The translations under genes were made by a program, and so were the position numbers. A stretch of 64,000 nt of DNA from a bacterium. GTDB lineage: Bacteria > UBA4055. This document shows positions 4,247-63,076 of the stretch, in pieces. Location: NCBI GenBank assembly GCA_029559475.1, contig JAKQBN010000055.1, positions 7,089-71,088 of the forward strand, given 5' to 3'. The notes below the pieces were generated by a model. It had not been told where the DNA came from. It searched no databases and worked only from the letters and a program-made list of their open reading frames with translations. Within the stretch, counting starts at the first letter, position 1. Each line of letters starts with the position of its first letter.

Positions 4247-4267
4247 TGAACTGGAATCTATAAAATC

Positions 4268-4714
4268 ATGATAGAAAAAATTGGTAATATAAAATGTACC
4301 GGAATCGATAATATTGAGCGTGATTTTATTTTGTCCAAAGAAAATGATAATTATAAAAACATAATTACATTCTATGTTTCATTACTGCCCATTATTGATA
4401 TTCAACCTAATTTTTACATGGTTGTAGAAAAAGTATTCAAGCCTAACAACGCTTATAAAGTTACGATGATAAATTGTAACAATGATGAAAAATTTTGTAA
4501 AAAAGGAATTCCGGATTCTTTGTTGCCAAGAGTAGCTGATTATTTGCAAACGGAAATTATTTCAAGCTCAGGTATAAAAGAGTTTAAAAGTACTGTCGGT
4601 GAGACAAGATATCCCGAAGCGACTACGATGTGGGAAAGATTAAGACAAAAAGGAATTGCTACATATTCGAAAAGAGAGGATATTTATACCATTGATTATA
4701 AGCTACTAAATTAA
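4268..4714 (+). CDS. hypothetical protein
   Basis: Intact 148-aa ORF 21 nt after the RM gene on the same strand. No domain recognised. Confidence 0.5.
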   Translation: MIEKIGNIKCTGIDNIERDFILSKENDNYKNIITFYVSLLPIIDIQPNFYMVVEKVFKPNNAYKVTMINCNNDEKFCKKGIPDSLLPRVADYLQTEIISSSGIKEFKSTVGETRYPEATTMWERLRQKGIATYSKREDIYTIDYKLLN

Positions 4715-4744
4715 AAAAATCGAGGCACAAAAGAGTCAGGATAA

Positions 4745-5326
4745 ATGAAGAAAAAAGATAAGTTGAAAATTATGGTATCATCCACTGTTTACGGCAGGGA
4801 GTATGAACTTGAACAAATTTACGCTATACTTACAGGCTATGGTTACGAAGTTATCATGTCTAAGGAAGGTTCGGTTTATCTGCCTGCCGGGGCTTCTATT
4901 CCTGAGTCTTGTCTAAAGGCTGTAGAGGACTGTGATTTGTTTTTGGGTATAATATTCCCTCGTTATGGTTCAGGAATTACTCATCAGGAATTTAAAAAAG
5001 CGATTGAATTGGGTAAACCAAGATGGTTTATTGCTCATCAATATGTGAATTTTGCCAAAAATATATTGGACCAGTATATGTTTAAAAAAGACGGCACTTT
5101 GAACATATCGTTTAAATTTAAAGAAACTTCTATGTTGGATAGTGCCGATATTGTGCACATGTACAATGATGCAGTATTGAATCATTTGAAGCCTGAAGAG
5201 AGAAGATCTAACTGGGTGCATCATTTCTTTAAAACGGATGAGATATTCACTTTTTTGAAGACGCAATTTGAACCTATCGAATCGAGGTGTGCTGAGATAG
5301 AAAAAATAAAGGGAACAAGAAAATGA
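4745..5326 (+). CDS. DUF4062-like protein (TIR / nucleoside deoxyribosyltransferase-like fold)
   Basis: N-terminal pattern KIMVSSTVYG..E...IY..L...GYEV...CL.AVEDCDLFLGII.PRYGSGITHQEF..A.ELGKP resembles the DUF4062 signature. Its stop overlaps the next start (ATGA at 5323-5326). Confidence 0.55.
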   Translation: MKKKDKLKIMVSSTVYGREYELEQIYAILTGYGYEVIMSKEGSVYLPAGASIPESCLKAVEDCDLFLGIIFPRYGSGITHQEFKKAIELGKPRWFIAHQYVNFAKNILDQYMFKKDGTLNISFKFKETSMLDSADIVHMYNDAVLNHLKPEERRSNWVHHFFKTDEIFTFLKTQFEPIESRCAEIEKIKGTRK

Positions 5327-36695: not shown

Positions 36696-36733
36696 TTACC
36701 TGAATTATTTACATGAACCTTATTATTGACGAT
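36696..36733 (+). repeat. junction repeat N1 (ttacctgaattattta...ccttattattga)
   Basis: 32/38 identical to N2 at 38022-38059, including an exact 16-mer. Contains ACCTGAAT, also present in R1/R2. Confidence 0.85.
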
Positions 36734-36784
36734 TTGATTTAATCGGAAAAATTCGTATATTACGGATAAGAAAACGGAGTAAGA

Positions 36785-37033: not shown

Positions 37034-37320
37034 TGAATTTCCATAGAATTAAAAATATAGAGGTTTTGAATAATTATCAGCTCAAAGTTGAATTTATAAC
37101 CGGCGAAATAAAAATATACGATTGCAAACCACTGCTTGAGAAAGATGTTTTCAAAGCTCTGGAAAATGAGAATTTATTCAGGAAAGTAAAGGTTGATATT
37201 GGAGGCTACGGTATTATCTGGAACGATGAAATTGATATTTCTGAATCTGAATTATGGATAAACGGCAAAAATATTAACTCCCAAGTCGCTGAAGACAAAG
37301 CAGATTACAATTCAAAATAA
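37033..37320 (+). CDS. DUF2442-family protein (usual partner of DUF4160)
   Basis: The ATG overlaps the upstream stop (taATG). IKNIEVLNNYQLKVEFITGEIKIYD resembles DUF2442. Confidence 0.75.
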   Translation: MNFHRIKNIEVLNNYQLKVEFITGEIKIYDCKPLLEKDVFKALENENLFRKVKVDIGGYGIIWNDEIDISESELWINGKNINSQVAEDKADYNSK

Positions 37321-37345
37321 GACTTTTTTATAACGAATAAATTTA
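37321..37345 (+). repeat. junction repeat M2 (gacttttttataacgaataaattta)
   Basis: Starts immediately after the DUF2442 stop codon. 22/25 identical to M1. Confidence 0.85.
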
Positions 37346-37350
37346 CTCGA

Positions 37351-37899
37351 TTACGGCAGGCGGCCGAGCAGAAGGTTTAAACTCAGGCCCGCAAAGCTTT
37401 TCTCCGCATTGATATTCCCGAAAGCCGAAAGACTTAATCCGAAAGGACGCGCTCTGTTCAGATCAAGCTGAATTTCCAAAGGAAACCCGAATGTCTGAAA
37501 ATTGTTCATTTCGTATCTTGGTGAAGGATCGTTCTCAATAAAATATTTTTTACCTTCATATTCACCGGTTGTAACACTAATACCGCAAAGATATGATAAA
37601 TGAATATTCCCGAAAGATCGTCCGTATCCGTAAAGCAAACCATAATCCCAGGCTGAACCGCCATTATAAGGCTCACACGAAATAGTGCTACCTCCCGCAA
37701 TTCTCAACTTGATAACGTGCGTGTATTTTGAAAAATTGATTGAAACATTACCGCCTGTTAAGCCTGTATCCTCTGTAACAACTGCGCCTAATCCTGCGCT
37801 GAACCAGAGATGGTAGGGGAAAGGTCCGGTGCGTTCCTTGAAATTTATCGCGTTCAGGCATGAGGCGGTGAAGATCAGGAACAATAAAAAATACTTCAT
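37351..37899 (-). CDS. putative secreted or outer-membrane beta-rich protein
   Basis: N-terminal signal peptide (MKYFLLFLIFTASCLNA). Gly/aromatic-rich alternating pattern. No family recognised. Confidence 0.45.
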   Translation of the reverse strand: MKYFLLFLIFTASCLNAINFKERTGPFPYHLWFSAGLGAVVTEDTGLTGGNVSINFSKYTHVIKLRIAGGSTISCEPYNGGSAWDYGLLYGYGRSFGNIHLSYLCGISVTTGEYEGKKYFIENDPSPRYEMNNFQTFGFPLEIQLDLNRARPFGLSLSAFGNINAEKSFAGLSLNLLLGRLP

Positions 37900-38021: not shown

Positions 38022-38059
38022 TTACCTGAATTATTTATAAAAGCCTTATTATTGAAGAG
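38022..38059 (+). repeat. junction repeat N2
   Basis: 32/38 identical to N1. Its last 11 nt overlap the stop and last codons of the DUF4143 ATPase gene. Confidence 0.85.
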
Positions 38060-39254
38060 TTGGTTTAGACAGAAAATCAAACAGATTTATATGTTTTACG
38101 CCTGACTTTCTTTTAAAAACGACCGGATCCATTGAAATAACATACTTCGGATGGTTGTCCCTGACAGCCTCAAGGGCTGAAAACTCTCTTTCTGCTGTTT
38201 CCTGATTCTGCATCAGATATGATACCTGAATATAGATTTTTTCTTCTTCCTTTTCCGCTATAAAATCAATTTCCTTGTCTCCTATTCTGCCGAATGATAC
38301 TTTATAATCCCTTCTGTAAAGCTCAAGGCAGACTATGTTCTCCAGTATTCCGCCGATATCTTCATCTCTGAATCCCAGTACCGCGTGTCTTAAACCCAGG
38401 TCGCCGGCGTAATATTTTGCGTTCGTGTCAAGATATTCTTTTCCTTTTAAGTCGTATTGCCTGATCTTATGTGTGATCATTACATCGTTCAGGTTGTGTA
38501 TAAGGCTCAGAATAGTCGGAACACTGGTTTTTATGTGCTGGTTCTTCATATATTTTACGACGCTGCTTGCGTTGAACTGATTACCTATGTTATCGAAAAC
38601 AAAGCTCACTACGTCCTCCAGCAGGCTCACATTCCTTACATTGAATTTCTTAACTATATCTTTGAGAAGTATCGTCTGGTAGATAGCATCAAGGAACTGA
38701 AATGTTGCGGAAGCTTGAAAATCCAGATGAAAAAGTCCCGGCAGCCCTCCGAATCTGATATATTTTCTGAATACTTCCTCCTTCGGCTTACTTTCAAAAC
38801 CTCCGAGCTCGGTAAATTCATTGAAGCTGAAAGTATATATTTTGAACTCGACATATCTGCCTGAGATCAAAGTGGCAAGATCAGATGAGAGAAGATGCGA
38901 GTTCGATCCTGTGATATAAACATCCATGCCTTCAGCCAGAAAAGAGTTCACCGACCGTTCCCATTCCTTTATTTCCTGTACTTCATCAATAAGGATAACC
39001 GAACCGGACTTTCCTCCCGATTCGTCTATATAGCTATTCAATACTTTATAGTCAGTTATAAAATCGAACTGACGAAGCTCTTTATTTATTGAAATGACTT
39101 TCTTTTTCGGTTCGTTATGTTTTATCTCAGCTTCGATCTGCTTCAGCAGTTCACTTTTTCCCACCCTTCTCATACCGCTCAGGATCTTTATGACCGGTTT
39201 ACCCATAAAAGGCCTGATCTTTTTTAAATATGTTTCCCTTATTATAGTTTTCAT
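38049..39254 (-). CDS. AAA_14 + DUF4143 ATPase
   Basis: Walker A SGMRRVGKS, Walker B VILIDEVQ. C-terminal DUF4143-like region (GRIGDKEIDFI...). Confidence 0.8.
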   Translation of the reverse strand: MKTIIRETYLKKIRPFMGKPVIKILSGMRRVGKSELLKQIEAEIKHNEPKKKVISINKELRQFDFITDYKVLNSYIDESGGKSGSVILIDEVQEIKEWERSVNSFLAEGMDVYITGSNSHLLSSDLATLISGRYVEFKIYTFSFNEFTELGGFESKPKEEVFRKYIRFGGLPGLFHLDFQASATFQFLDAIYQTILLKDIVKKFNVRNVSLLEDVVSFVFDNIGNQFNASSVVKYMKNQHIKTSVPTILSLIHNLNDVMITHKIRQYDLKGKEYLDTNAKYYAGDLGLRHAVLGFRDEDIGGILENIVCLELYRRDYKVSFGRIGDKEIDFIAEKEEEKIYIQVSYLMQNQETAEREFSALEAVRDNHPKYVISMDPVVFKRKSGVKHINLFDFLSKPTLQ

Positions 39255-39590: not shown

Positions 39591-40094
39591 CTACCCCAGC
39601 CCCAGCACCAATTCCGGAATAAACTTATTCCTTGCGTCAGGATAGATCTTCTTTCTAAAGTTCTCTACCGCAATTTTCTCATATAAGTATAAAGACCCTC
39701 CGTCTCCGGCTATTGAATATTTAGGCATAATAATATCACCCAGCTTAATATCCGCTTTCAAAGCACCTGCCGCGCCTATGAATATCACTTTTTTGCATTT
39801 CGATCCGCCCAGAGTCAAACATGAATCGATCGTATTGGCCGCACCCGCCGCTACCTGAATATAGCCGAAACTTTTACCTTCAAATTCTACGGTATAACCG
39901 CAATAATACGGACCTTTTTTTTCTACTCTGACCACAGGATTGTATGCCGAAAAAATAATTTCAGGATTCCACGAAGGAGCCACGATTACCGCATCGTATT
40001 CAAAATCGGGATCTAACCCGTAGATATCTTTCAGCAGATTATCACAGGCGTTATACTTATGCAGGGATGATTTAAATTTTTCGTAGAGGGTCAT
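39591..40094 (-). CDS. nucleoside phosphorylase-family (PNP_UDP_1-like) protein, apparently C-terminally truncated
   Basis: VIFIGAAGALKADIKLGDIIMPKYSIAGDGGS resembles the phosphorylase core. At 167 aa it is short for the family. Confidence 0.45.
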   Translation of the reverse strand: MTLYEKFKSSLHKYNACDNLLKDIYGLDPDFEYDAVIVAPSWNPEIIFSAYNPVVRVEKKGPYYCGYTVEFEGKSFGYIQVAAGAANTIDSCLTLGGSKCKKVIFIGAAGALKADIKLGDIIMPKYSIAGDGGSLYLYEKIAVENFRKKIYPDARNKFIPELVLGLG

Positions 40095-44679: not shown

Positions 44680-45639
44680 TTAAGAAAATTTATTTAAAAG
44701 AGTTAAAATCTTTTTAATTTCATATTTTATTTCAGGGCTATCATTGATAGAATCAGCGAATTCAGAATCAGTAATGAGCTCTCGAAATGCTCTCATCTTT
44801 TTATAGATACTATCTATTTTTCCAGTATCTTTAACCTGTTCGAAACCATTATAAATATCTTTTTGCCCCGATGCTATCTCAGCGAGAACTTTTTTCGCTT
44901 TTTTATCAGGACACTTAGCTATTTCACCTACCTTTCTGATGTCAGAAGCCTGTTGTATTTCTTTGTTTTTTATTTGCAAAACGAGAGTATTAACTAATTC
45001 AGGATGAGATTTGGTTGCATTATTTATAGATTTGTTCTTGAGCAACTCGTCATAATAACTCCAATTTGTCGGTTCCAAGTCTTTAGTCTCAATCATAAAA
45101 GAGAAGACTTTTAAATATCTTTGAGCATCTCCTTTTTTTATACCTAACTCTTTAGCCATTATGTCAACAGATAGCTTTGATTCTTTACTTCGTCTGTACA
45201 AATATCCAGCCTGCTCGTATGGACTCCAGTCTTTTCTTCCTATAATGTGATATTGCCCAAGAAGAGTAAAAATAGATGATTCATCAATGTCTGAAGGTAA
45301 AATTAAACATTTAACTTTACCCCATGAAATAGGATCTTTTTGACATAAAATTCGATATGCCGCTAATCGGCTATTTCCTTCAAGTACAACTAAATCACCA
45401 TCACGCACAATTAAAGGATCAATTAGACCGCCATTACTTTCAATGGAAAGCCTAAGTTGCTTCACATGCTCCATCGAAATCATCAATTTTTCAATGTTAC
45501 TTTGATCGGGCTTGATGTCATCAGAAACTCTTAGGGCACTATAGACTCGAGGATTATCGACATAGAACTTAAGAGAAGCTTGGAGGATTTCCTCTTCTTT
45601 TACTTGAAACTCTTTTTTGCCAATTGTCAATGTATTCAT
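44680..45639 (-). CDS. ParB/Srx-fold N-terminal domain protein (paralogue 2)
   Basis: DNPR, NGGLIDPLIVRDGDLVVLEGNSRLAAY, GRKDWSPYEQAGYLY. Its start overlaps the SNF2 stop (ATGA). Confidence 0.7.
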   Translation of the reverse strand: MNTLTIGKKEFQVKEEEILQASLKFYVDNPRVYSALRVSDDIKPDQSNIEKLMISMEHVKQLRLSIESNGGLIDPLIVRDGDLVVLEGNSRLAAYRILCQKDPISWGKVKCLILPSDIDESSIFTLLGQYHIIGRKDWSPYEQAGYLYRRSKESKLSVDIMAKELGIKKGDAQRYLKVFSFMIETKDLEPTNWSYYDELLKNKSINNATKSHPELVNTLVLQIKNKEIQQASDIRKVGEIAKCPDKKAKKVLAEIASGQKDIYNGFEQVKDTGKIDSIYKKMRAFRELITDSEFADSINDSPEIKYEIKKILTLLNKFS

Positions 45640-47120
45640 GTTTCACTCTCACTATTTTCATTTAAAATATCTTTAACAAGCTCACCAAAACTATAATCCG
45701 CAACATTTTGGTATTTCTTCAAAACATAATCTCCTTGAGCTAAAAAAGCTGCATTCTGTTTGGCTTTGAGTAAAAGGTCAATCCAAATGTCAATACTATC
45801 TTTAACCATCAAATTATAGATGTTGCAAGTTTTTGTTTGTGAAATACGATGAATTCTATCTTGTGCCTGCAAATAATCATCAAGATTAAAACCGCGATCG
45901 TAAAAAATGACATTGTTCGCAACTGTCAGTGTAAGTCCTTCTTTCGCGGATTGAGGCGTAGCAAATAATACTTTAGCATCTCCATTTTTAAACTCACGTA
46001 CAGAATGTATTCTTTCTTCAATTTTCATTTTTCCGGTAATTTTTACTGCATTAAGGTACTTATACTTTTTACAGAAATGATCAACATTGTCAATAAAAAT
46101 TGACCAAACTATAATCTTTTCATCTCTATTGATTATTTCTTTGATTAATTCATCTAGTTTAGCTTCCTTACCTGAAAAACAGCAGTATAAGTCATCTAAT
46201 AATCTAGGATTTGATGTAATCTGTACCAGTCTTAACAATCTTTTTATTGAATCAGAAGATTCATCAAGTATAGCCACATCATCCCGTTGCAATAATAGTT
46301 GCATCTCTGTTCTAACTTTATCATACATCATGTATTGGGTCTTTTCAAAATCGACAAACACATCATAATACACTTTGTTTGGAAGTGTTATAATTCCGCT
46401 GCTCTTAGTCTCACGTACAGTAAAATCTTTAATTCTCGTAAAAATATTAGATACAGATGATTCAAACACATCTCTTTTTACTTTGTTATTGGACAAATCA
46501 TTAGTAAGATTTGTTGTCGATTTGAACTCAGAGAAATTAGTTCCCAGGCTCTTCCCGTTATCGAGGAAATAAATCTGAGCCCAAATATCATATGGTCTAT
46601 TAGCCACAGGTGTGCCTGTCATTATAACCCGAATCTTAAATAAACTAGAAATCTCGAAAAAATCTTGTGTTAGTCTAGAATCGGGATTTTTTAGTTTCGT
46701 AGATTCATCGATAATAATGGCAACATTCCTAGTCTTTAGAAAAAGCTTGAATCTCACTAACTCACCAGATATAGTTTCAAAATTCGTAATTATTACTCTA
46801 GTAGCGCTATTAAATACATAGTAATTTTCTGTCCGTTTACTTGTTAGGATTCTAGGTGTAATATTAGTATGTATTTCAAACTCGCCACGCCAATTTTCAA
46901 CTAATTGCTTTTTTGTGACAATAAGTACGGTATCAATTTCCAAAAATTCTAACCAATATAAAAGAAGATCAATTGCTATTTTCGTTTTACCTAGTCCTTG
47001 CTCATGAAAGATTGCTGCATATGGCAAATTTTTCATTGCTTCAAAAGCTTCGTATTGATATGGGAATGCATTTAGCTTCGCTGTTAGATTTTGTCCGGGT
47101 AAATTGATTATTTTTCTCAT
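45636..47120 (-). CDS. compact SNF2-family helicase/translocase
   Basis: Motif I HEQGLGKT, motif II IIDESTKLKN, motif VI QAQDRIHRISQTK. 494 aa with no accessory domains. Confidence 0.9.
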   Translation of the reverse strand: MRKIINLPGQNLTAKLNAFPYQYEAFEAMKNLPYAAIFHEQGLGKTKIAIDLLLYWLEFLEIDTVLIVTKKQLVENWRGEFEIHTNITPRILTSKRTENYYVFNSATRVIITNFETISGELVRFKLFLKTRNVAIIIDESTKLKNPDSRLTQDFFEISSLFKIRVIMTGTPVANRPYDIWAQIYFLDNGKSLGTNFSEFKSTTNLTNDLSNNKVKRDVFESSVSNIFTRIKDFTVRETKSSGIITLPNKVYYDVFVDFEKTQYMMYDKVRTEMQLLLQRDDVAILDESSDSIKRLLRLVQITSNPRLLDDLYCCFSGKEAKLDELIKEIINRDEKIIVWSIFIDNVDHFCKKYKYLNAVKITGKMKIEERIHSVREFKNGDAKVLFATPQSAKEGLTLTVANNVIFYDRGFNLDDYLQAQDRIHRISQTKTCNIYNLMVKDSIDIWIDLLLKAKQNAAFLAQGDYVLKKYQNVADYSFGELVKDILNENSESET

Positions 47121-47530
47121 ACGATACTTACGCTCCCGATGTCGTTTAAAATATGAAGCTTGACCGATGAATTTTGTTCCGCTTTGATTCTTTTAGCCAT
47201 GTTTTTTATTCTTGCGTATGAATAAATTGATGTACAAATAATAATATGGCTTTCTTCATCAAATAATGAGGCTTCTCTAATATATGATCTATACTGTTCA
47301 ATACTGTGTTTACGGTCAATATCATTCTCAGTTTTAGCTTCTCCAATTATCAAACGACGAGTATCTTTGTAATATAGGTCAGGTATAAAATTACCAATCG
47401 TTCTTTCTGGTCTTCTGTTACTATCGGGTAAATCTACTAGCACAAGTGCCCTTGCGTCGAAAGGTAATAATAAAAATACATAATTAGCAATTTGGCGAAC
47501 ATAATTTATATGTTCAATAGATTCAGCCAT
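47117..47530 (-). CDS. small PD-(D/E)xK-like nuclease-fold protein
   Basis: FIPDLYYKDTRRLIIGEAKT gives D...ExK with 14-residue spacing. 137 aa. Its stop overlaps the SNF2 start (ATGA). Confidence 0.5.
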   Translation of the reverse strand: MAESIEHINYVRQIANYVFLLLPFDARALVLVDLPDSNRRPERTIGNFIPDLYYKDTRRLIIGEAKTENDIDRKHSIEQYRSYIREASLFDEESHIIICTSIYSYARIKNMAKRIKAEQNSSVKLHILNDIGSVSIV

Positions 47531-47534
47531 AAAA

Positions 47535-48545
47535 TTAATCTTCAGGTTGTATGTCTTTCAATATTTCTTGGAGACCTTCAAAAATATCAAGGAGCATTGT
47601 TTTCTTTTTTTCGTATTCGGGATCACTACCTAAATTTTTTACTTCTTTGTATTCTAGCCTGTTAAGCGCTTCTAAGAATTTTGTACCAAGAACATCATAT
47701 GTAAACTTATCTAGCTCATTATGTGTATTCTCAGTTATAGCTATCTTTTTTACAGCTTCTGAGATATTTCTTCTTAAAAAAACTTTTAACGCTTCTGGTT
47801 CCTTCAGTACTGCGGGTAATTGACGCACATTTTGCGCTGTATCGATGTTATCATCGACAACCCATTTTGCAAAATCATTTTTTGTAAAACCTTTATTGGT
47901 TAGTGCATAAGTTATTGTTGACCGTTGAAGCTCAACAAATTTTGAAAATTCTCTTATATCAAAATCATCACCTTTTTCTTTTACTGCTTTGGCATAATAT
48001 ACTTGCATGTCGCGGTATGCACTTATAAGCTTATTTATTTCTGAAGTATTACCACCGCACATGGATATGATATTTGCCATTGGCAAGCGTTCAATTTCAC
48101 TCAGTTGATGTAGATATTTAGCTTTTGAATACGGATCCCAATCACGAGGACCAACTAAATGTGACTGTAATCTAATGGAATGTTTTTCTGAGTCAGTTAA
48201 GCATTCGTAAATAATGGAACTGATTTTACTCCAAGGGCCTGTTGGATTTAACGCTAGAAATTCTTTATAAATTTGAAGTCTCGTATTCCCTTCGATTACG
48301 ATTAAACGTCCATCCGGTTCTTTACTGACTATAATTGGATGAATAATTCCTCCACTGACCTTAATAGACTCCTTTAGAGTATTATAAGATGTAGATGAAT
48401 CACCGTTACCTGGGTTTGTTAATGCAAGTGCAATAGCTTCACTTGTTATTTCACCCGGATAAATCTCAAGATATTGCTTGATTCTTGGATTGTCGAGGTC
48501 AAGATGAATTTCGCTAATGTCCAATTCAATGTATTTAGGTTCCAT
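47535..48545 (-). CDS. ParB/Srx-fold N-terminal domain protein (paralogue 1)
   Basis: LDLDNPR, SGGIIHPIIVSKEPDGRLIVIEGNTRLQIY, GPRDWDPYSKAKYLH. agaggg RBS. Confidence 0.7.
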   Translation of the reverse strand: MEPKYIELDISEIHLDLDNPRIKQYLEIYPGEITSEAIALALTNPGNGDSSTSYNTLKESIKVSGGIIHPIIVSKEPDGRLIVIEGNTRLQIYKEFLALNPTGPWSKISSIIYECLTDSEKHSIRLQSHLVGPRDWDPYSKAKYLHQLSEIERLPMANIISMCGGNTSEINKLISAYRDMQVYYAKAVKEKGDDFDIREFSKFVELQRSTITYALTNKGFTKNDFAKWVVDDNIDTAQNVRQLPAVLKEPEALKVFLRRNISEAVKKIAITENTHNELDKFTYDVLGTKFLEALNRLEYKEVKNLGSDPEYEKKKTMLLDIFEGLQEILKDIQPED

Positions 48546-48556
48546 ATTTTACCCTC

Positions 48557-49810
48557 TTATTTAGATTTATACTGATTAATTTCTTCGAATCTTAAATCAT
48601 AATACTTCTTTGCGATTTCAGGAAACTCCATTTCAAAATCAATCATTGCTTTATAACAAGAGCAATATCCTTTTATGATGTTTGTATGGGTCAGGTGGTA
48701 TTCCTCATTTGCTTTACAGTACTGTCTAAAGCTTTTCTTTTTTAAAAAGTTTGGTTGATTACACCATCTTGCCAACTGTATATACATTGATTTATATTTA
48801 GATTCTTTATAATCCTCATATCTCATTATATAAGGCAAACATCCATGTTCCATTATTATTTTAATACGTTCAAAAGTATTCTCAATATCTCGTTCATCCT
48901 GGCTATCGTATCCGGTAAGGACATATAATTTTGTGGATTTTTTGTAATATTTTTTCCAAATCTTCAAGCTGTTGGAAATTTTTTCAGCATCTTCAATATG
49001 GTCAAATGCAAATATAAAATCACCTTTGTATTTAACTTTTGCAAGCCGTTCAGCTTTATCAGCTGTCATTAGTCGTATATCTAGACCCTGTCTAAATTGG
49101 AAAGGCTTCCCAGTAGCTATTAATGCATCAAGAATGGTGTAGAAGTCAGGTGAAGCCATAAAATTGTCATCCCATAAATATATGCCTCGTCTTTTTGGGT
49201 CTAAAAATTCCGAGATTGGAGAGTGTTTAATAACACGGTCATATTTCCTGTTAACACAATAACTACATTTTCTAAAACAACCTCTTGTCGTGAATCCGAT
49301 TGAGTAATTCAAGTAATCTTCATATCTAATAACATTCTTAGTAAAATTATCTGTTTGACTAGAAATAAAGTCTGTATAGAGTTCATAATCAGGCATGTGA
49401 TGTTCTATCTTATCCGGTAGATCTGGACTGTCCATCCCATAGAAACCTGTACCTCCGATAATTATCTCTTTATTATCAATTCTCTTTTGAATAACAGCTG
49501 GAATTTTAGTAAAATTAAAAACTTTAGACATTATTAAAAAATCATAAATATCTTCTTTCAATTTATCTGCAATTTCAGAGTAGTCACATATTAATTTAAC
49601 GCTATGTCTGAACTCTTTGCAATATCCCGATATTTTAAGTAAAGCAAGATTTGGATGCTTTGTGCCTTGGTCAAGAAGGTCGGCATCAATTATTCCAATT
49701 TTAAATTGTTTGTCGTTAGCCTCAATTAATTCACAAAAAATGAATCCTAATTTATTTTCGAGGAGTTTGTAGTAATTATTTTTTTGAAGGTTTTCTTTTT
49801 TACTTAACAT
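48557..49810 (-). CDS. radical SAM protein with N-terminal Rossmann/B12-binding-like extension
   Basis: GFTTRGCFRKCSYCVN gives CxxxCxxC. About 170 aa precede the cluster (IGIIDADLL...LALLKISGY). ATG 49810 is preferred over TTG 49819. Confidence 0.8.
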   Translation of the reverse strand: MLSKKENLQKNNYYKLLENKLGFIFCELIEANDKQFKIGIIDADLLDQGTKHPNLALLKISGYCKEFRHSVKLICDYSEIADKLKEDIYDFLIMSKVFNFTKIPAVIQKRIDNKEIIIGGTGFYGMDSPDLPDKIEHHMPDYELYTDFISSQTDNFTKNVIRYEDYLNYSIGFTTRGCFRKCSYCVNRKYDRVIKHSPISEFLDPKRRGIYLWDDNFMASPDFYTILDALIATGKPFQFRQGLDIRLMTADKAERLAKVKYKGDFIFAFDHIEDAEKISNSLKIWKKYYKKSTKLYVLTGYDSQDERDIENTFERIKIIMEHGCLPYIMRYEDYKESKYKSMYIQLARWCNQPNFLKKKSFRQYCKANEEYHLTHTNIIKGYCSCYKAMIDFEMEFPEIAKKYYDLRFEEINQYKSK

Positions 49811-50030
49811 AATTTCCAAGTTTTAAAGTTACAGAATGCTTAACTGAGAGGAAAGTGAGGACTATTTTTGATAGCAATAGACCACTTTTTGTTTAATAGA
49901 ATGAGATATTTTAATGAACTGCTTCGTTTTATAGCTGCGTTATCGTTTCATTTATGACATTAGGAAAATAAAACCTTATGAATGAATAATCAAGTAAATT
50001 GCTTTAGTATTTTGTCTGATATAATTCGAA

Positions 50031-50087
50031 TTAATTAACTTTCTTATACCTGAATACTGCGTAGTTGGTTACGACTGTGCTGTAATG
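50031..50087 (+). repeat. direct repeat R1: displaced copy of the ABC-2 permease 3' end
   Basis: Aligns to 51835-51892 with 4 mismatches and 1 indel over 58 nt. Its minus strand encodes STVVTNYAVFRYKKVN*, against STVVTAYAVFRYKKVN* in the real gene. Confidence 0.9.
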
Positions 50088-50109
50088 TAAAATATATTAT
50101 ACAAATGTA

Positions 50110-50138
50110 TTGACAAAAATAATTGACATGTGTATATT
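50110..50138 (+). promoter_or_regulatory. near-consensus sigma70 promoter of the XRE-Panacea gene
   Basis: TTGACA (50110-15), 17-nt spacer, TATATT (50133-38). A second TTGACA lies at 50123-28. aggagg RBS before ATG 50165. Confidence 0.55.
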
Positions 50139-50164
50139 GCAGCTACATATTATACAGGAGGTTT

Positions 50165-51022
50165 ATGATGGCGATGAATGAATACATTAGAAAAATGAGA
50201 GAAATGAAAAATATTTCTCAAGAGATCGCCGCAAAAGAACTGGGATATACAAGACAGACATATATACAGATCGAGAGCGGCAGCAGAGATATTACTTTAA
50301 GCGAGTTGAAGAAACTTTCGGCTATGTTTGATATTCCTTTTAATAAATTTGTGACCGAAACAGAACCTGACACATTTAACATAGATTTTGAGGAAAAGGA
50401 AGCGGATATTGAGTCAAAGGAGATAAGGATAAGTGTTCCGCAGAACAGAGTCGGTAAATTCAAGGAGGTTCTGCTTTATATTCTGTCTAAGGCGGGAGCA
50501 AAGCCGAACATTGGTGAGACAGCTATTTATAAACTTTTGTATTTTATTGATTTTGATTATTACGAGAAGTATGAAGAACAGTTGATAGGGGCGAATTATA
50601 TCAAAAATCATTATGGACCGACTCCAGTGATATTTAAAAAACTGACTGAAGAAATGATCGCTGATAATGAGCTTGAAGTGATCGAAAAAACTTATTATGA
50701 ATTCAATCAAAAGAAATATTTACCGAGAAGATGTGCCGATTTAAGTAAAATATCCGCCCGTGAGATTAAGCATATTGACGAGGAACTGGAAAGGCTAAGT
50801 GATAAAAATGCAGCTGAGTTGAGCGAGCTGTCGCATAAAGATGTCCCGTGGATCACAGCGAAGGAAGGTGAAACGATTGAATATGAAGGCGTTTTTTACC
50901 GCACAGGAGATACTTCGGTGAGATATAAAAAATTGAAAGATCGTATGTCCATGGCTGCGGAAGCTTTGTATAACGATTATTGTTCTGATAAAGAGCTCAC
51001 TGCATTTACCGATCTTATTTGA
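50165..51022 (+). CDS. XRE-family HTH fused to Panacea (DUF4065/SocA-like) antitoxin-type domain
   Basis: The HTH is ISQEIAAKELGYTRQTYIQIESG. The Panacea-like core is GETAIYKLLYFIDFDYYEKYEEQLIGANYIKNHYGPTP. The ORF-track start at 50123 is actually a -35 box. Confidence 0.8.
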   Translation: MMAMNEYIRKMREMKNISQEIAAKELGYTRQTYIQIESGSRDITLSELKKLSAMFDIPFNKFVTETEPDTFNIDFEEKEADIESKEIRISVPQNRVGKFKEVLLYILSKAGAKPNIGETAIYKLLYFIDFDYYEKYEEQLIGANYIKNHYGPTPVIFKKLTEEMIADNELEVIEKTYYEFNQKKYLPRRCADLSKISAREIKHIDEELERLSDKNAAELSELSHKDVPWITAKEGETIEYEGVFYRTGDTSVRYKKLKDRMSMAAEALYNDYCSDKELTAFTDLI

Positions 51023-51080
51023 ATAAGTAGGTTTTGAGAACTCAACTATGCGGAGTGTAGTTAGCTTGAGGGATGGTATT

Positions 51081-51497
51081 TTAATTTTTAAAAGGATTTA
51101 TGATTTTAAGAGTGTTTTCAATCAGTTGATTATGCTGCATATCTTCGCTGTATAAAATTGAACATCCCGACTCCAATGCGGAAGCAATTACTAAGCTGTC
51201 CCAATATGAGAATCCATACCGGTCTTTGATTTCCATAGCCTTAATTACATCAAAAGTGCTTATATCGACTACATTAAAATTAGCTATAGTCTCGATAATG
51301 ATATCATTTACTTTGCCTTTTGTATTGATAGCTTTTTTTACTAGTGCTGAATAAAGCTCATTTAAAATTTGCGTACTTATGATAATATTTTCAAAATTTT
51401 CAGTAATTAACTTATCGGCTATATTTTTTTTTGAGATATCTTCGCTGTAATAAAGGTAAACCCATACATTGGTATCAATAAAAACCTTATCTGTCAT
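51081..51497 (-). CDS. PIN-domain toxin (VapC-like)
   Basis: MTDKVFIDTNVWVYLY N-terminus, DSLVIASAL, YSEDM acidic residues. Confidence 0.8.
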   Translation of the reverse strand: MTDKVFIDTNVWVYLYYSEDISKKNIADKLITENFENIIISTQILNELYSALVKKAINTKGKVNDIIIETIANFNVVDISTFDVIKAMEIKDRYGFSYWDSLVIASALESGCSILYSEDMQHNQLIENTLKIINPFKN

Positions 51498-51693
51498 ATA
51501 ATTCTTCCCGGTTGAACTTATAGCCCTTTTCAAATTTCATCTGATATCTTTTAACAAAATCAAGAAAACTTTTCTTTTTGTCGTGTTTTTCATCAATAAT
51601 AATGACTTTAATTTTCTGCCCGTCAACCAACCCGAATTCTTCATCTAAAGTCAGGTTATTGTTATTGTATGTGGCGGTAACTACTTTAAACAT
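51487..51693 (-). CDS. putative antitoxin (DUF104-like)
   Basis: 68 aa. Overlaps the PIN start by 11 nt. ATYNNNNLTLDEEFGLVDGQKIKVIIID resembles the DUF104 pattern. Confidence 0.5.
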   Translation of the reverse strand: MFKVVTATYNNNNLTLDEEFGLVDGQKIKVIIIDEKHDKKKSFLDFVKRYQMKFEKGYKFNREELYDR

Positions 51694-51834
51694 AATAATT
51701 TTCTCCTTTTGCTATTCTGGTTCAATTTAGCAAAAAAAAGGATTAATTCCAAATGAAATATCAAAAAAGGCGGTCAGGGATGTTCTGACGCAGATTTTCA
51801 GAAAAACTGTTAATGAACATTGTGATACTCTTCA

Positions 51835-51892
51835 TTAATTCACTTTCTTATACCTGAATACTGCGTATGCGGTTACGACTGTGCTGTAAATG
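51835..51892 (+). repeat. direct repeat R2 (functional 3' end of the ABC-2 permease gene)
   Basis: Partner of R1. Includes the 16-nt near-palindrome tactgcgtatgcggta. Confidence 0.9.
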
Positions 51893-52962
51893 GTCATTAT
51901 TAAAAAGTGTTTTGAGATGTCTGAGAAGCCTGATCCTTTTAGGAGTACCATGCGCATTGCGTCTATGAAGTATGCTATCGGGTTGAACCATGTTATGCGC
52001 TGCGCCCACATCGGCATGCTTTGTATGGGTGTGAAGAGGCCTGACATGAGCAGGAAGATCACTAGTATGAACCATGAGATGAACATAGCCTGCTGCTGGG
52101 TGTCCGCGAAGGTTGAGATCACGAGTCCGACGGATAGGACTGCCACGAGGTAAACGGCTGCGAAAAAGAATATGAGGGTGAGGCTTCCGTTGAAGGGGAT
52201 GTCGAAAATAAGCTTGGCTATGAATAATCCGAATGTGAGTTCGAAGAGCGCGATGATGAAGAAGGGGGTGAGTTTGCCGATTATGAATTCATATTTTTTT
52301 ATCGGGGTGACATTGATCTGCTCGATCGTGCCTATTTCCTTTTCTTTTACCACGCTCATGGAGGAGAGGAACATTCCGATGAAGGTGACGAGGAGTACGA
52401 GTATGCCCGGTACCATGAAAGTGATGTAATCAAGTTCGGGATTATACCAGTGGAGATATGATACCTGCACCGTTGAAGATTGTACAGGCGTGATGACATT
52501 TATTAGGTTCATGCCTTCATCAATATTAAAATCCCTTACGATGCTCTGGGAATATGCCGCTATTATGCCTGCTGCGCCTCCGTCTATGGCGTTGATCAGG
52601 AATTGGACTTCAGCCTTATTTTCTTTGATGAGATCTCTTTCAAAATTCTTCGGGATGACTATTGTGAGTTTTGAACGGTCTTTTAAGATGCCTTCTTCCG
52701 CATCTTTCTGGCTCTGCGGATAGTCGGTTCTGGTAAAATGGGGAGAGGCTTCAAACTTTGAGGCAAGCCTTGTTGAAAGCGGGCTTCTGTCGAGATCGAG
52801 CACTCCGAAATTTACATTTTTTATTTCAAATGTGGTGGCGTTGGCTAAGATCAGAAGCTGGATGATGGGCATAACGAAGATCATCGGGAGCATTGATCTG
52901 TTCCTGAAAACCTGCCTGAATTCTTTCCTCACTATAAAAAAGATCGTTCTCATTCCGGTCAC
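51835..52962 (-). CDS. ABC-2 type transporter permease (YbhR/YbhS-like)
   Basis: 375 aa. N-terminal TM helix, large periplasmic loop and five C-terminal TM helices, the typical ABC-2 layout. Confidence 0.85.
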   Translation of the reverse strand: MTGMRTIFFIVRKEFRQVFRNRSMLPMIFVMPIIQLLILANATTFEIKNVNFGVLDLDRSPLSTRLASKFEASPHFTRTDYPQSQKDAEEGILKDRSKLTIVIPKNFERDLIKENKAEVQFLINAIDGGAAGIIAAYSQSIVRDFNIDEGMNLINVITPVQSSTVQVSYLHWYNPELDYITFMVPGILVLLVTFIGMFLSSMSVVKEKEIGTIEQINVTPIKKYEFIIGKLTPFFIIALFELTFGLFIAKLIFDIPFNGSLTLIFFFAAVYLVAVLSVGLVISTFADTQQQAMFISWFILVIFLLMSGLFTPIQSMPMWAQRITWFNPIAYFIDAMRMVLLKGSGFSDISKHFLIMTIYSTVVTAYAVFRYKKVN

Positions 52963-61018: not shown

Positions 61019-63076
61019 ATGAAACTTTTAGGAAATATTATCGCTTTGCTGATTGTTGTAGTAATACTTGCAGGATGCGTAAGCACTGCGTATAAGACCG
61101 CAACTATTGCGAATACGATTGCATCTTACGATCAATTCCTTAGAAATCATCCTGGCAGTCAATTTGAATCTGATGCCCGGAGTCGGCTCGACTCGCTGTA
61201 CTTTCAGAGTACCGAGTGGGAAGGTTCGATCCAGGCGTATGAGAACTTCCTTCAAGTGCACAAGAACTCTCCCTATATAGCAGAAGCCCGGAGTCGGCTC
61301 GACTCGCTGTACTTTCAGAGTACCGAGCGGGAAGGTTCGATCTATGCGTATGAGAACTTCCTTCAAGTGCACAAGAACTCTCCCTATATAGCAGAAACCC
61401 GGAGCCGGCTCGACTCGCTGTACTTTCAGAATACCGAGAAGTACTGGGCAGCTGCGCAAGAGACCGACAATATCGAAGGATATGTGGCATTCCTTGATGA
61501 ACATCCCGGGTCGTCTCGTACAAAGGAGGCAACAGCACGAAAAGAATTGCTCGAAAAACACTTGGACGAATGGAAAGATGTCATGCGTAATCCTACCAGG
61601 CAGAGTCTCATGCTTTACTGCGACCGGAATTCGGATAGCCCTTACCTCACAAAAGCAAGGGTTGTAATTCAGGACATGGAAGGACGCGACATCGTCGATC
61701 TCCTGAATGAAAAAAAAGTCGAGATTGAGACCAATGGCAGTGGAATTCAGGAGATAAGAGCCCGTATCCGGAAGCTTGTAGATTATCCTATAAGGGTTCT
61801 TTTTCCTATTGGTAGCTACTTTGTCTCCTCCAGGCTGTCGGCGCAGAACATGGTATCGACAGCAGAGACGAGCATGCATCTTACAGGCAGCGAATGGAAA
61901 TCGGTTTCGATATCGGCAGCATGCGCTAATAGACTAAAGCATATTCCTGGTTCAGAAGACACGTTCACTGTTCAGCGATTATATTTGGAGGAACTGGCTA
62001 GAATTATGCCTGTTCTTGATAAGGCAGGTGTGAGTTACGAAACACGCCAAGCAGCAGTATGGATTGTGACGGACAATGCCGATTACAATGATCTTGGAAT
62101 CCTTGTCCAAGACGACAGAAGTCGAGAAATAAACGAACTTGAAGCGGCGCGTGCCATGAAGATTTGCGTCGAAGCTGGTATTGATATCCGGCTGAAGAGA
62201 ATCTGGAGCGACTGGCAGGAGATTATTACTGGATTGCATGACGCTGAATTGAAGACATGGTTCGCTATTTACGGAGCACATTTTCTTGATTCAGATAAAA
62301 AAAGTGCTAAAGATCGAAATAACAAAAAGGTACAGAAAAATATTGAAGCAATCCCTGAAATGGTATTTGTGGAGGGTGGTACGTTTCAGATGGGAAGTAC
62401 TAGCGGAGATCAAGATGAAAAGCCTGTTCATAATGTAACACTTTCTGATTTTTACATCGGCAAGACTGAGGTGACACAGGCGCAGTACCAGGCTGTCATT
62501 GGCGAAAATCCGTGTTGTTTTAAAGACGATAATTTACCGATAGTAAATGTGTCTTGGTACGATGCAGTTAATTTCTGCAATAGGCTTAGTGAAATGGAGG
62601 GACTGGATATTTGTTACAGTGAAAACGATTTTAAAATTACCTGTAATTTCAAAGCCAAAGGGTACAGGCTCCCGACTGAGGCTGAATGGGAGTATGCAGC
62701 AAGAGGGGGGAATAATAGCAAAGGATACAAGTATTCCGGAAGCAACAATGCAGATGATGTTGCCTCAGAGTATGGTTCGAATCCATATTCTGTAGCAGCA
62801 AAACAGCCTAATGAAATTGGTATATATGATATGAGTGGAAATGTCTGGGAGTGGTGCTTTGATTGGTACCGCAGTTACATGAACAGTCCAAGTAATAATC
62901 CAACAGGGCCAAGTTCGGGCTATAATATAATCTGCAGTGGCATCTGGGACCACTTTGTCGGGTTCTGCCGCGTCCTACGGGGCGGCGACTGGAAATACCG
63001 GTGTGTTGATCGATACTACTATCCCCCATGGCGCAGAATCAACCGCGTCGGCTTTCGTGTCGCAAGGACGCCTTGA
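61019..63076 (+). CDS. lipoprotein with TPR-like repeats and C-terminal FGE-sulfatase (SUMF1/EgtB/PvdO-type) domain
   Basis: Lipobox LAGCVS. The C-terminus carries GGTFQMGS...DEKPVHNVTLSDFYIGKTEVT, YRLPTEAEWEYAARGG, NVWEWCFDWY, RVLRGGDW and GFRVARTP. Confidence 0.85.
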   Translation: MKLLGNIIALLIVVVILAGCVSTAYKTATIANTIASYDQFLRNHPGSQFESDARSRLDSLYFQSTEWEGSIQAYENFLQVHKNSPYIAEARSRLDSLYFQSTEREGSIYAYENFLQVHKNSPYIAETRSRLDSLYFQNTEKYWAAAQETDNIEGYVAFLDEHPGSSRTKEATARKELLEKHLDEWKDVMRNPTRQSLMLYCDRNSDSPYLTKARVVIQDMEGRDIVDLLNEKKVEIETNGSGIQEIRARIRKLVDYPIRVLFPIGSYFVSSRLSAQNMVSTAETSMHLTGSEWKSVSISAACANRLKHIPGSEDTFTVQRLYLEELARIMPVLDKAGVSYETRQAAVWIVTDNADYNDLGILVQDDRSREINELEAARAMKICVEAGIDIRLKRIWSDWQEIITGLHDAELKTWFAIYGAHFLDSDKKSAKDRNNKKVQKNIEAIPEMVFVEGGTFQMGSTSGDQDEKPVHNVTLSDFYIGKTEVTQAQYQAVIGENPCCFKDDNLPIVNVSWYDAVNFCNRLSEMEGLDICYSENDFKITCNFKAKGYRLPTEAEWEYAARGGNNSKGYKYSGSNNADDVASEYGSNPYSVAAKQPNEIGIYDMSGNVWEWCFDWYRSYMNSPSNNPTGPSSGYNIICSGIWDHFVGFCRVLRGGDWKYRCVDRYYYPPWRRINRVGFRVARTP
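61175..61440 (+). repeat. 111-bp (37-codon) tandem repeat, about 2.4 copies, inside the lipoprotein gene
   Basis: Copy 1 (61175-61285) and copy 2 (61286-61396) differ at 3 positions. A third partial copy starts at 61397. Confidence 0.9.

What the first reader, a model, noticed from the sequence alone, without database searches (positions are those of the whole stretch)
50031..51892. 58-bp direct repeat duplicates the last 17 codons of the ABC-2 permease gene and flanks a 1.75-kb TA-type insert
The sequence at 50031-50087 aligns to 51835-51892 with 4 mismatches and 1 indel (counted by eye). The right copy is the real 3' end of the permease gene (...STVVTAYAVFRYKKVN*). The left copy still encodes STVVTNYAVFRYKKVN* but has no gene body.

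This is the classical signature of an element integrated into a gene's 3' end while supplying a replacement end (attL/attR). The enclosed segment carries only an XRE-Panacea gene and a PIN TA pair, with no recombinase. It is therefore either a decayed element or was mobilised in trans. R2 contains a 16-nt near-palindrome (tactgcgtatgcggta) that could be a recombinase core.
Basis: seen in the sequence. Interest (0 to 1): 0.6.

Follow-up and report, generated by a model that had tools for sequence, protein, structure and literature searches.

The report
Displaced gene end beside toxin-antitoxin insert

Summary
Observation confirmed. Window 50030-50085 (R1) and 51834-51889 (R2) are a 56-nt ungapped direct repeat, 52/56 identical and unique in the window. 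R2 is the true 3' end of the ABC-2 permease. R1 is a body-less copy.

Fifteen related Ca. Delongbacteria contigs show what it is.
- Two strains have an empty site with one copy (L005, L089).
- Others carry one to three displaced permease ends of 23 to 255 nt.
- These ends lie between different TA or defence cassettes, always in the same orientation.
- No locus carries a recombinase.
- The cassette-side junction of the XRE-Panacea gene is identical in six lineages. It abuts a roughly 130-147-nt pseudo-end in three of them, so R1 is best read as a trimmed relic of a longer duplication.

The window's insert is composite: an orphan XRE-Panacea antitoxin that lost its PemK toxin, plus a later AF2212-like/PIN pair.

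The attL/attR and recombinase-core reading is not supported, because repeat lengths and outer boundaries vary, the near-palindrome is not conserved, and no attP-like copy was found.

Best fit is insertion with long target duplication, previously described for restriction-modification cassettes. It probably arises by one-sided homologous plus illegitimate recombination; that mechanism is inferred. Interest is moderate.

The parts
51835..52953 (-). ABC-2 family permease gene (372 aa as called in the source MAG), the last gene of a TetR/OEP/radical-SAM/ABC export operon. It is the recurrent insertion target.
   Evidence: Pfam ABC2_membrane_3, E = 1.8e-50. Gene tables.
51834..51889 (-). R2: the functional 3' end of the permease (last 17 codons, stop, and 1 nt).
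50030..50085 (-). R1: a displaced, body-less copy of the permease 3' end (pseudo-end). With one gap it extends to 50088.
   Evidence: It matches real ends of other strains at 50-52/56, about as well as R2 does.
49959..50029 (-). Original sequence downstream of the permease (the long allele, ...AAAGCAATTTACTTGATTATTCA). It travels with the pseudo-ends.
   Evidence: Conserved next to pseudo-ends in L003 (88%), L008 (two copies), L092, L096 and L091. Its ACTTGATTATTCATTCA core follows the real stop in the empty-site strain L005.
50086..50164 (+). Leader and promoter region of the XRE-Panacea gene. Its outer end (...ATGTAAAATATAT on the + strand) is the conserved cassette-side junction.
   Evidence: Promoter-like sites at 50110-50138 (11/12) and 50123-50151. 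The junction is identical in six lineages.
50165..51022 (+). XRE-HTH + Panacea (SocA-like) antitoxin gene. It is an orphan here: the toxin is lost and the PemK-type C-terminal tail is truncated.
   Evidence: Pfam. Relatives pair it with PemK (L004, L092) or with a 122-aa gene (L087). Tails are compared.
51026..51047 (.). Remnant of the tail and terminator-hairpin region that abuts the permease stop in toxin-less variants (L086, L091). It marks the inner edge of the later PIN-TA insertion.
51081..51497 (-). PIN-domain toxin (VapC-like).
   Evidence: Pfam PIN, E = 2.9e-15.
51487..51693 (-). 68-aa AF2212-like putative antitoxin. It overlaps the PIN start by 11 nt.
   Evidence: Weak Pfam AF2212-like hit, E = 5.8e-4, just under the cutoff. 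The gene is retained without PIN in L003.
51773..51789 (-). Terminator-like hairpin plus T-run, 45 nt after the permease stop. It is supplied by the PIN-TA cassette.

Best explanation
R1 is the old 3' end of the permease gene. It was displaced together with its native downstream sequence when a Panacea-type toxin-antitoxin cassette was inserted at the gene's end with a long duplication of the target.

Shown:
- The duplication was originally at least about 130-147 nt. That form survives in L004, L092 and L096.
- In the window's lineage its proximal part is missing, leaving 56 nt.
- The present insert is composite. It holds an XRE-Panacea antitoxin gene that lost its PemK toxin and the last 8 codons of its tail, and a later-arriving AF2212-like/PIN pair set between it and the permease stop.
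- The site is the proximal edge of a roughly 14-17 kb low-GC defence island. Across Ca. Delongbacteria it has taken such duplicative insertions repeatedly, leaving arrays of one to three pseudo-ends.

Inferred mechanism: no dedicated recombinase is involved. Incoming DNA from a relative recombines homologously inside the permease or its operon. Its far end is joined illegitimately further upstream in the recipient's permease 3' region. This is homology-facilitated illegitimate recombination, and the outcome is what has been described as 'insertion with long target duplication'. The donor supplies an intact gene end, so the gene survives and the recipient's end becomes a pseudo-end.

Once present, cassette plus repeats spread among strains and sister species by ordinary homologous recombination.
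For: 1. Empty sites have one copy: L005 has permease stop, then AATAAACTTGATTATTCATTCA, then the next gene. L089/L090 have a single core within 10 kb.
2. Pseudo-ends vary in length and have different inner junctions: 56 (window, L008), 62 (L087), 149 (L003), about 130-160 at 71-74% (L004), 255 plus two of about 40 (L091), 23 (L008, second copy), 34+32 (L092), 43+36 (L096) and about 30 (L099).
3. Pseudo-ends always sit in gene orientation downstream of the permease, and conservation falls with distance from the gene in L091 and L008. This fits serial displacement.
4. In L091 the real end is followed by native-like downstream sequence and a Schlafen/AlbA_2 gene, then by a 255-nt pseudo-end. An element-borne att mimic does not explain this, but a donor fragment joined back at -255 does.
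5. The cassette-side junction is identical in six lineages, with a full, an internally deleted, or a proximally deleted pseudo-end.
6. XRE-Panacea is 91-93% identical in nucleotides between lineages whose permeases are 74-84% identical. L004 and L096 pseudo-ends share a 20-mer that is absent from both real ends. So the cassette and the proximal pseudo-end move together.
7. No integrase or transposase appears in any variant locus or in 40 window ORFs. No terminal inverted repeats flank the insert.
8. Other, unrelated long direct repeats made of gene 3' ends flank small cassettes in the same islands: window 36696-36750/38022-38076, and L089 14219-14266/15344-15391.
9. All descriptive criteria of 'insertion with long target duplication' except the cargo type are met (PMC2853133).
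Against: - The mechanism is inferred from end products only. No junction could be compared with an unrearranged donor, so microhomology at the illegitimate joint is untested.
- The permease 3' haplotype does not obviously co-vary with the adjacent cassette. The window and L008 real ends differ at about the gene-wide rate.
- Four different cassettes begin 0-1 nt after the stop codon, and every pseudo-end keeps the last 23 nt or more. A fixed recombination core would also predict both features.
- Natural competence of these uncultured bacteria is unknown.
- Deriving the 56-nt form from the 147-nt form requires a deletion plus a 1-nt slip. It also requires R1 to have been refreshed by recombination with a species-level real end.
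Confidence: 0.55

Rival explanations
1. Site-specific integration in trans (a CIME-like or decayed integrative element, with tandem accretion). The last roughly 24 nt of the permease (TTCAGGTAYAAGAARGTNAATTAR) would be an attB. Cassettes carrying a matching attP, plus variable amounts of gene-end mimic, would be inserted one after another by a recombinase encoded elsewhere.
For: - All pseudo-ends retain the terminal 23-30 nt, lie in one orientation, and form arrays separated by cassettes.
- Several cassettes start 0-1 nt after the stop.
- The XRE-Panacea cassette crossed between lineages whose targets are only 74% identical. That divergence is a barrier to homologous recombination.
Against: - No recombinase is linked in about 15 variants or found in the window.
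- Identity blocks range from 23 to 255 nt. Outer limits lie at the stop codon in some loci, 7 nt past it in L087, and apparently about 30 nt past it in L096 by eye.
- One cassette end is joined to two different gene positions.
- In L091 native downstream DNA lies inside the 'element'.
- The core is absent from 2.9 M viral contigs. In species genomes it is found only at this locus.
- Other cassettes in the island are flanked by repeats of unrelated sequence.
Confidence: 0.2
2. Campbell-type integration by host homologous recombination. A circular DNA carrying the cassette and a fragment of the permease 3' end would integrate by a single crossover within that fragment. The fragment's length would set the repeat length. 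The cassette could then loop out and re-enter other cells.
For: - Variable repeat lengths and absence of a recombinase.
- The same cassette plus 56-nt repeat lies next to two different downstream alleles: L087 versus the window and L008.
- R1 is species-level sequence.
Against: - It needs a separate illegitimate circularisation for every repeat length.
- The same cassette end would have to be joined independently to -147 and to -56.
- 56 nt, and 74% identity between species, are poor substrates for RecA.
- No circular form has been observed.
Confidence: 0.15
3. Local origin: a tandem duplication or unequal crossing-over of the permease end in situ, or a true staggered-cut target duplication, with later replacement of the interior by TA genes.
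For: - Direct repeats of target sequence only.
- The empty site has one copy.
Against: - The interior is foreign low-GC DNA that is shared across species at higher identity than the flanks.
- L004's pseudo-end is only 71-74% identical to its own gene and resembles another lineage's permease.
- Staggered cuts 56-255 nt apart have no known enzyme.
Confidence: 0.07
4. Assembly artefact: a strain-chimeric MAG contig looping through a shared 56-mer.
For: The window comes from a metagenome-assembled genome.
Against: The cassette|pseudo-end junction recurs in two further independent assemblies from other samples, with 2-8% sequence divergence (L008, L087). Homologous junctions occur in L004, L092 and L096.
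Confidence: 0.01

Closest known systems
Insertion with long target duplication (described for restriction-modification cassettes; Furuta, Abe & Kobayashi 2010, PMC2853133, which cites the original 2000 H. pylori report)
   Same: - A small selfish or defence gene cassette is flanked by long direct repeats of variable length: 46 to about 420 nt there, 23-255 nt here.
- The empty site in a relative has one copy.
- There are no mobility genes.
- The repeat can overlap a gene's 3' end.
- The repeat is unique in the genome.
- The insert is low in GC.
   Different: - The cargo is toxin-antitoxin or other defence genes, not an R+M pair.
- Insertions recur serially at one gene end and give arrays of displaced ends.
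- The cassette is also exchanged between sister species.
- In both cases the mechanism remains unproven.
Homology-facilitated illegitimate recombination during natural transformation (named from my own knowledge of the Acinetobacter and S. pneumoniae work; no paper was read here)
   Same: - One homologous anchor plus one illegitimate joint.
- No element-encoded enzyme.
- Variable junction positions.
   Different: - The classic experimental products are insertion-deletions rather than duplications.
- Competence and microhomology joints are untested here.
Recombinase-less att-flanked elements (CIMEs) and tandem accretion at gene or tRNA 3' ends, including tycheposon remnant arrays (named from my own knowledge)
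   Same: - Cargo without an integrase sits between repeated 3'-end fragments.
- Arrays of fragments lie next to a variable island.
- The gene is kept intact.
   Different: - In those systems the repeat is a fixed att core set by a known integrase family, and autonomous integrase-bearing relatives occupy the same site.
- Neither feature was found here.
Core defence hotspots or defence islands turned over by flanking homologous recombination (named from my own knowledge)
   Same: A fixed core-gene border (the permease) sits next to strain-specific sets of defence genes: AbiL, PD-T7-3, PDC-S01, type I/III restriction-modification, Mrr, Schlafen-like and TA genes.
   Different: Simple allelic replacement leaves no duplicated gene ends. 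Here the border gene's end is duplicated repeatedly.
Panacea (PanA) antitoxin TA modules (Kurata et al. 2022, PMC8832971; title and abstract seen only)
   Same: - An HTH + Panacea antitoxin.
- The toxin partner differs between near-identical antitoxins: PemK, a 122-aa unknown protein, or none.
   Different: - In the window there is no cognate toxin.
- The neighbouring PIN has its own small antitoxin.

Membership tests
Insertion with long target duplication (criteria of PMC2853133) | Direct repeat longer than 30 bp flanking the insert | tested here: met
   56 nt, 52/56 identical
Insertion with long target duplication (criteria of PMC2853133) | A related genome lacks the insert and aligns with a single copy of the repeat | tested here: met
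   L005 and L089/L090 have one copy
Insertion with long target duplication (criteria of PMC2853133) | Insert shorter than 20 kb, with no mobility-related genes in or beside it | tested here: met
   1,748-bp insert with three genes. No integrase or transposase Pfam hit in the island or window.
Insertion with long target duplication (criteria of PMC2853133) | Repeat length long and variable between events | tested here: met
   23-255 nt across strains
Insertion with long target duplication (criteria of PMC2853133) | Cargo includes both R and M genes | tested here: not met
   The cargo is XRE-Panacea plus a PIN TA pair. This criterion reflects the scope of that survey, not a mechanism.
Integrative element with attL/attR (including recombinase-less CIME) | Recombinase gene in the element, or autonomous relatives with a recombinase at the same site | tested here: not met
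   None in about 15 variant loci
Integrative element with attL/attR (including recombinase-less CIME) | Constant identity block or crossover core shared by independent insertions | tested here: not met
   Inner junctions fall at -23, -30, -56, -147, -160 and -255. Outer limits lie at the stop codon in some loci, 7 nt past it in L087, and apparently about 30 nt past it in L096 by eye. A shared terminal stretch of about 23 nt exists but behaves as ordinary coding sequence.
Integrative element with attL/attR (including recombinase-less CIME) | attP-bearing copy elsewhere (phage, plasmid or another locus) | tested here: not met
   The core has 0 matches in viral contigs. In genome contigs it matches only two Delongbacteria permease loci. 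Only exact matches were searched.
Integrative element with attL/attR (including recombinase-less CIME) | Excision circle and repaired attB detectable in reads | not testable with these tools
   There is no read access.
DNA transposon | Short target duplication (under about 15 bp), terminal inverted repeats, transposase | tested here: not met
   56-nt repeat. No inverted repeat at the insert ends. No transposase.
Integron cassette array | intI integrase and attC hairpin sites between cassettes | tested here: not met
No integrase was found. The separators are permease 3' fragments.
Type II TA, PIN/VapC-like | PIN-domain toxin with a small upstream, overlapping antitoxin gene | tested here: met
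   PIN E = 2.9e-15. The 68-aa gene overlaps by 11 nt. The AF2212-like hit is weak, E = 5.8e-4. Activity was not tested.
Panacea (PanA) TA module | Panacea-domain antitoxin | tested here: met
   SocA_Panacea E = 6.8e-18, plus HTH_3
Panacea (PanA) TA module | Cognate toxin gene in the same operon | tested here: not met
   There is none in the window. PemK is present in L004 and L092, and a 122-aa gene in L087. The window's tail is truncated.

The most novel reading that the evidence does not exclude
The permease gene end is a dedicated landing pad. Its conserved terminal core of about 24 nt would be used by an unlinked recombinase, or by a host pathway, to capture defence and TA cassettes one after another. 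That would make it an integron-like cassette array without a linked integrase at the border of a defence island. Alternatively, the XRE-Panacea module itself promotes duplicative insertion: a 69%-identical PanA-PemK module at an unrelated locus (L100) is also bracketed by 65-nt and 33-nt direct repeats.
Probability: 0.1. Interest if true: 0.75.

Novelty: new member of a known kind. Interest (0 to 1): 0.4.

Why it matters
It shows, in an uncultured phylum, how a defence island grows at a fixed core-gene border without any element-encoded recombinase. Each insertion brings a fresh gene end and strands the old one, which leaves a readable layered record of past insertions.

It extends 'insertion with long target duplication' from restriction-modification cassettes to toxin-antitoxin and other defence cargo.

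It also gives a natural series of one Panacea antitoxin paired with different toxins, or with none, at one locus.

For annotation, it warns that a duplicated gene end is not by itself evidence for an att site.

Tried and rejected
- A third copy of the repeat at the far end of the low-GC island (about 35 kb), which whole-island attL/attR would need. None was found by word-7 blastn or by the core at 3 mismatches or fewer.
- The metagenome scan with the permease protein mostly returned 51-58% relatives. It added only L007 and L008.
- A test for a donor tract: elevated identity of the permease 3' end among strains sharing the PIN-TA cassette. There was no clear signal; the window and L008 differ at 5 of 175 positions by my own count, about the gene-wide rate.
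- L005 as an empty site for the whole island. Its downstream gene is only 37% identical to the window's 37351-37899 product and the contig ends, so the claim is limited to the first 450 bp.
- Plasmid or phage carriage of the XRE-Panacea gene. Only hits at 39% identity or less were found.
- Exact look-up of the 375-aa GTG-start permease failed. The source calls the 372-aa form.
- The near-palindrome as a recombinase core. Rejected, because the sequence changes at third-codon positions between strains.
- Terminal inverted repeats of the insert. None were found.
Full report
**1. The observation**

The repeat is real. The repeat finder reports 50030-50085 and 51834-51889 as a 56-nt ungapped direct repeat at 93% identity, 52/56. 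blastn gives E = 1.6e-18.

Both halves of the repeat occur exactly twice in the window and never in 100 shuffles. No degenerate third copy exists.

R2 is the end of the permease ORF 51835-52953(-), which hits ABC2_membrane_3 at E = 1.8e-50. R1 encodes ...STVVTNYAVFRYKKVN* behind an in-frame stop and has no gene body.

The 1,748-bp interval holds three genes and no recombinase domain:
- an XRE-HTH/Panacea gene, 50165-51022(+);
- a PIN gene, 51081-51497(-);
- an overlapping 68-aa AF2212-like gene, 51487-51693(-).

**2. Context**

The window is contig DAOMLF010000006.1 of MAG GCA_035422465.1. Close relatives of its proteins are labelled Candidatus Delongbacteria.

Core DNA has a GC content of 0.42-0.47. 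The region from 35 to 51.8 kb has 0.28-0.38. It is a defence island containing:
- RhuM;
- DUF4160/DUF2442;
- PDC-S01;
- AbiLi/AbiLii;
- DUF5131;
- PD-T7-3;
- an SNF2 helicase with two ParB-like genes and a CX3CX2C protein.

No integrase or transposase domain appears there or in 20 further window ORFs. There are no tRNA genes.

**3. Relatives decide the question**

I recovered the same locus from about 15 independent assemblies, using exact-protein look-ups of the permease and its 90% cluster members plus collection scans. Coordinates below have the permease on the + strand.

| Locus | Arrangement downstream of the permease |
|---|---|
| L005 | Empty site: stop, AATAAACTTGATTATTCATTCA, next gene; one copy |
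| L089/L090 | One copy, followed directly by an AAA_15/DUF4276 island that runs to RhuM |
| L087/L007 | 15 nt, 122-aa gene, XRE-Panacea, 56-62-nt pseudo-end, native downstream |
| L008 | As in the window; then a UvrD-like helicase and a DUF4062 protein; then a second, degraded pseudo-end (23 nt plus downstream); then Mrr and DUF5677 |
| L003 | 68-aa antitoxin, PIN reduced to about 8 codons, 109 nt, 149-nt pseudo-end (93%), native downstream, HsdR |
| L004 | PemK, XRE-Panacea (97.6% to the window), a pseudo-end of about 130-160 nt only 71-74% identical to its own gene |
| L091 | Native-like downstream, Schlafen/AlbA_2 gene, 255-nt pseudo-end (92%), hairpin, 62-aa remnant sharing the XRE-Panacea C-terminus, then two more pseudo-ends |
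| L092 | PemK, XRE-Panacea, and a pseudo-end in two pieces |
| L096 (sister species) | AAA-ATPase, XRE-Panacea, and a pseudo-end in two pieces |
| L099 | One convergent 351-aa gene, then a pseudo-end of about 30 nt |

The 24-nt gene-end core is found only at real and displaced ends. It is always in gene orientation, with one to four copies per locus.

**4. What this means for R1**

The sequence to the left of R1 (49959-50029) is the native downstream region. It accompanies pseudo-ends in five lineages, and its core follows the real stop in the empty site.

The outer end of the XRE-Panacea leader (…TTGTATAATATATTTTACAT) is identical in the window, L008, L087, L004, L092 and L096. What follows that junction differs:
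- In L004 it is a full pseudo-end starting at about -147.
- In L092 and L096 it is the same start with an internal deletion.
- In the window, L008 and L087 it is only the last 56-59 nt.

The simplest reading is one ancestral duplication of at least 130-147 nt that has since been trimmed. Both breakpoints read CAT, which is compatible with a microhomology deletion (my inference).

R1 is as similar to the real ends of other strains (50-52/56) as R2 is (51-53/56). Its N codon (AAC) can be connected through ACC (L087) to GCC (L008), which suggests drift in a pseudogene.

**5. The insert is composite**

XRE-Panacea proteins linked to PemK end in …TAFTDLDMEEFYEAR. Those linked to the 122-aa gene or to the ATPase end at …SVRSYDKL. 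The window and L008 end in …TAFTDLI.

The 22 nt after the window's stop codon (51026-51047) match the region that, in L086 and L091, runs into a perfect hairpin abutting the permease stop.

So the window's antitoxin is an orphan. The AF2212-like/PIN pair, together with a terminator-like hairpin at 51773-51789, was inserted later between the antitoxin and the permease. That second cassette spans roughly 51050-51833.

**6. Mobility of the cassette**

XRE-Panacea is 91% identical in nucleotides (94% in amino acids) between the window and L096, whereas the adjacent permeases are 74% identical. Against L092 the figures are 93% and 84%.

The pseudo-ends of L004 and L096 share GGTAATGCTCAAAGGATCAG, which neither genome's real end has. 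L004's pseudo-end translates to a permease tail closest to the sister-species proteins.

Cassette and proximal pseudo-end therefore move together between lineages, more recently than the core genomes diverged.

**7. Mechanism**

Against a dedicated site-specific system:
- no recombinase is linked in any variant;
- repeat lengths range from 23 to 255 nt, and inner and outer limits both vary;
- one cassette end is joined at two different gene positions;
- in L091, native downstream DNA lies inside the supposed element;
- the core has no match in 2.9 million viral contigs and occurs only at this locus among 185,579 species genomes;
- repeats of unrelated sequence flank other small cassettes in the same islands.

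In favour of a site-specific system:
- every pseudo-end keeps the last 23 nt or more;
- several cassettes begin right after the stop codon;
- the cassette crossed a 26% divergence barrier.

I therefore prefer recombinase-free duplicative insertion, with confidence 0.55. In this model donor DNA pairs homologously in the permease or operon. Its far end is joined illegitimately upstream in the recipient's permease 3' region. The donor's gene end becomes the working one, and the recipient's end is stranded. This step is inferred, not shown.

The outcome matches the descriptive class 'insertion with long target duplication'. Its criteria are a repeat over 30 bp, an insert under 20 kb, no mobility genes, and an empty site with one copy. 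The class is reported mostly from naturally competent species, and its own authors left the mechanism open (PMC2853133).

The rivals are:
- a trans-acting recombinase (0.2);
- Campbell-type integration of circles (0.15);
- a local duplication (0.07);
- an assembly artefact (0.01).

**8. Comparison and novelty**

This is a new example of a known kind of rearrangement. The cargo differs (TA and defence genes instead of restriction-modification), and the serial record at one defence-island border is unusually clear. It is not a new class of element.

- Genomes lacking the segment have one copy, which supports insertion.
- L003, which lacks most of the segment, still has two copies. That fits serial and composite insertion.
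- The repeat is not dispersed.

**9. Limits**

- All relatives are metagenome contigs, and many end inside the island.
- Exact-pattern scans miss diverged cores.
- No reads, no complete genome and no experiment were available.
- Several junction statements rest on reading alignments by eye: the -147 start, the CAT microhomology, L099's 30-nt pseudo-end and L096's outer repeat limit.

Noticed in passing
window 36696-36750 and 38022-38076: A second long direct repeat in the same island: 55 nt, 82% identical. The right copy is the last 9 codons plus 27 nt downstream of the AAA_14/DUF4143 (PDC-S01) gene. The repeats bracket a DUF4160/DUF2442 pair and a small beta-barrel-like gene. Strain L089 lacks the DUF4160/DUF2442 pair at this position.
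   Followed up: partly
L089 14219-14266 and 15344-15391: Two 48-nt fragments (85% identical) that match the 3' end of the window's DUF2442 gene (37285-37328). They flank a 327-aa gene, and there is no DUF2442 gene body nearby. This is another stranded gene end.
   Followed up: partly
L100 7208-7272/9184-9248 and 7881-7913/10578-10610: A 69%-identical XRE-Panacea + PemK module at an unrelated locus in another organism is bracketed by a 65-nt repeat (85%). It is also bracketed by a 33-nt repeat (97%) whose right copy lies in the 3' end of a Fic gene.
   Followed up: no
window 50165-51022; L004 11476-12354; L087 3288-4061; L092 2288-3169; L096 4092-4868: Near-identical Panacea antitoxins (94-99% in amino acids) sit beside different partners: PemK, a 122-aa protein with no Pfam hit, an AAA/DUF234 ATPase, or nothing. 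The C-terminal tail changes with the partner. The gene is far more conserved across species than the neighbouring core gene (91% vs 74% in nucleotides).
   Followed up: partly
window 44680-49819: A five-gene minus-strand cluster: a 420-aa CX3CX2C (radical-SAM-like) protein, a 336-aa protein with weak PDC-M38A/PD-Lambda-5_A hits (ParB-like by my reading of its sequence), a 137-aa protein, an SNF2 helicase (ZorD/DpdE-like), and a 319-aa protein with the same weak PADLOC hits. Four of the five have no Pfam hit. It may be an undescribed defence system.
   Followed up: no
window 1112-6774: A second low-GC stretch (0.29-0.35) with a Type ISP-like restriction-modification gene (1044 aa), a DUF4062 protein and a Schlafen/AlbA_2-HATPase_c_4 protein. 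It looks like another defence island at the window's left end.
   Followed up: no
window 61172-61438: Three tandem copies of a 111-nt unit (95-100% identical) inside the 685-aa FGE-sulfatase-domain ORF (61019-63076).
   Followed up: no
window 39591-40094; L096 6070-6858: The window's PNP_UDP_1 ORF matches only positions 66-112 of the family profile, whereas the sister species has a 262-aa version. The window copy is probably a gene fragment inside the island.
   Followed up: no
L003 1405-2897; L004 2710-3383; L089 2104-3418 (left of the TetR gene; window about 59.5-60 kb): The other end of the permease operon is also a variable spot. It holds AbiEii in one strain, FitA/PIN in another, and BrnT/CopG plus FitA/PIN in a third.
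   Followed up: no
L091 4260-4400: Short tandem repeats (CAGGTGGTCAAG and CCCCGCAAGTTA units) fill the gap between the second and third displaced permease ends.
   Followed up: no
window 33479-35005: A cyclophilin with a type IX secretion sorting domain (Por_Secre_tail). The source labels this MAG 'Clostridiales bacterium', while its closest relatives are labelled Candidatus Delongbacteria. The taxonomic label looks doubtful.
   Followed up: no
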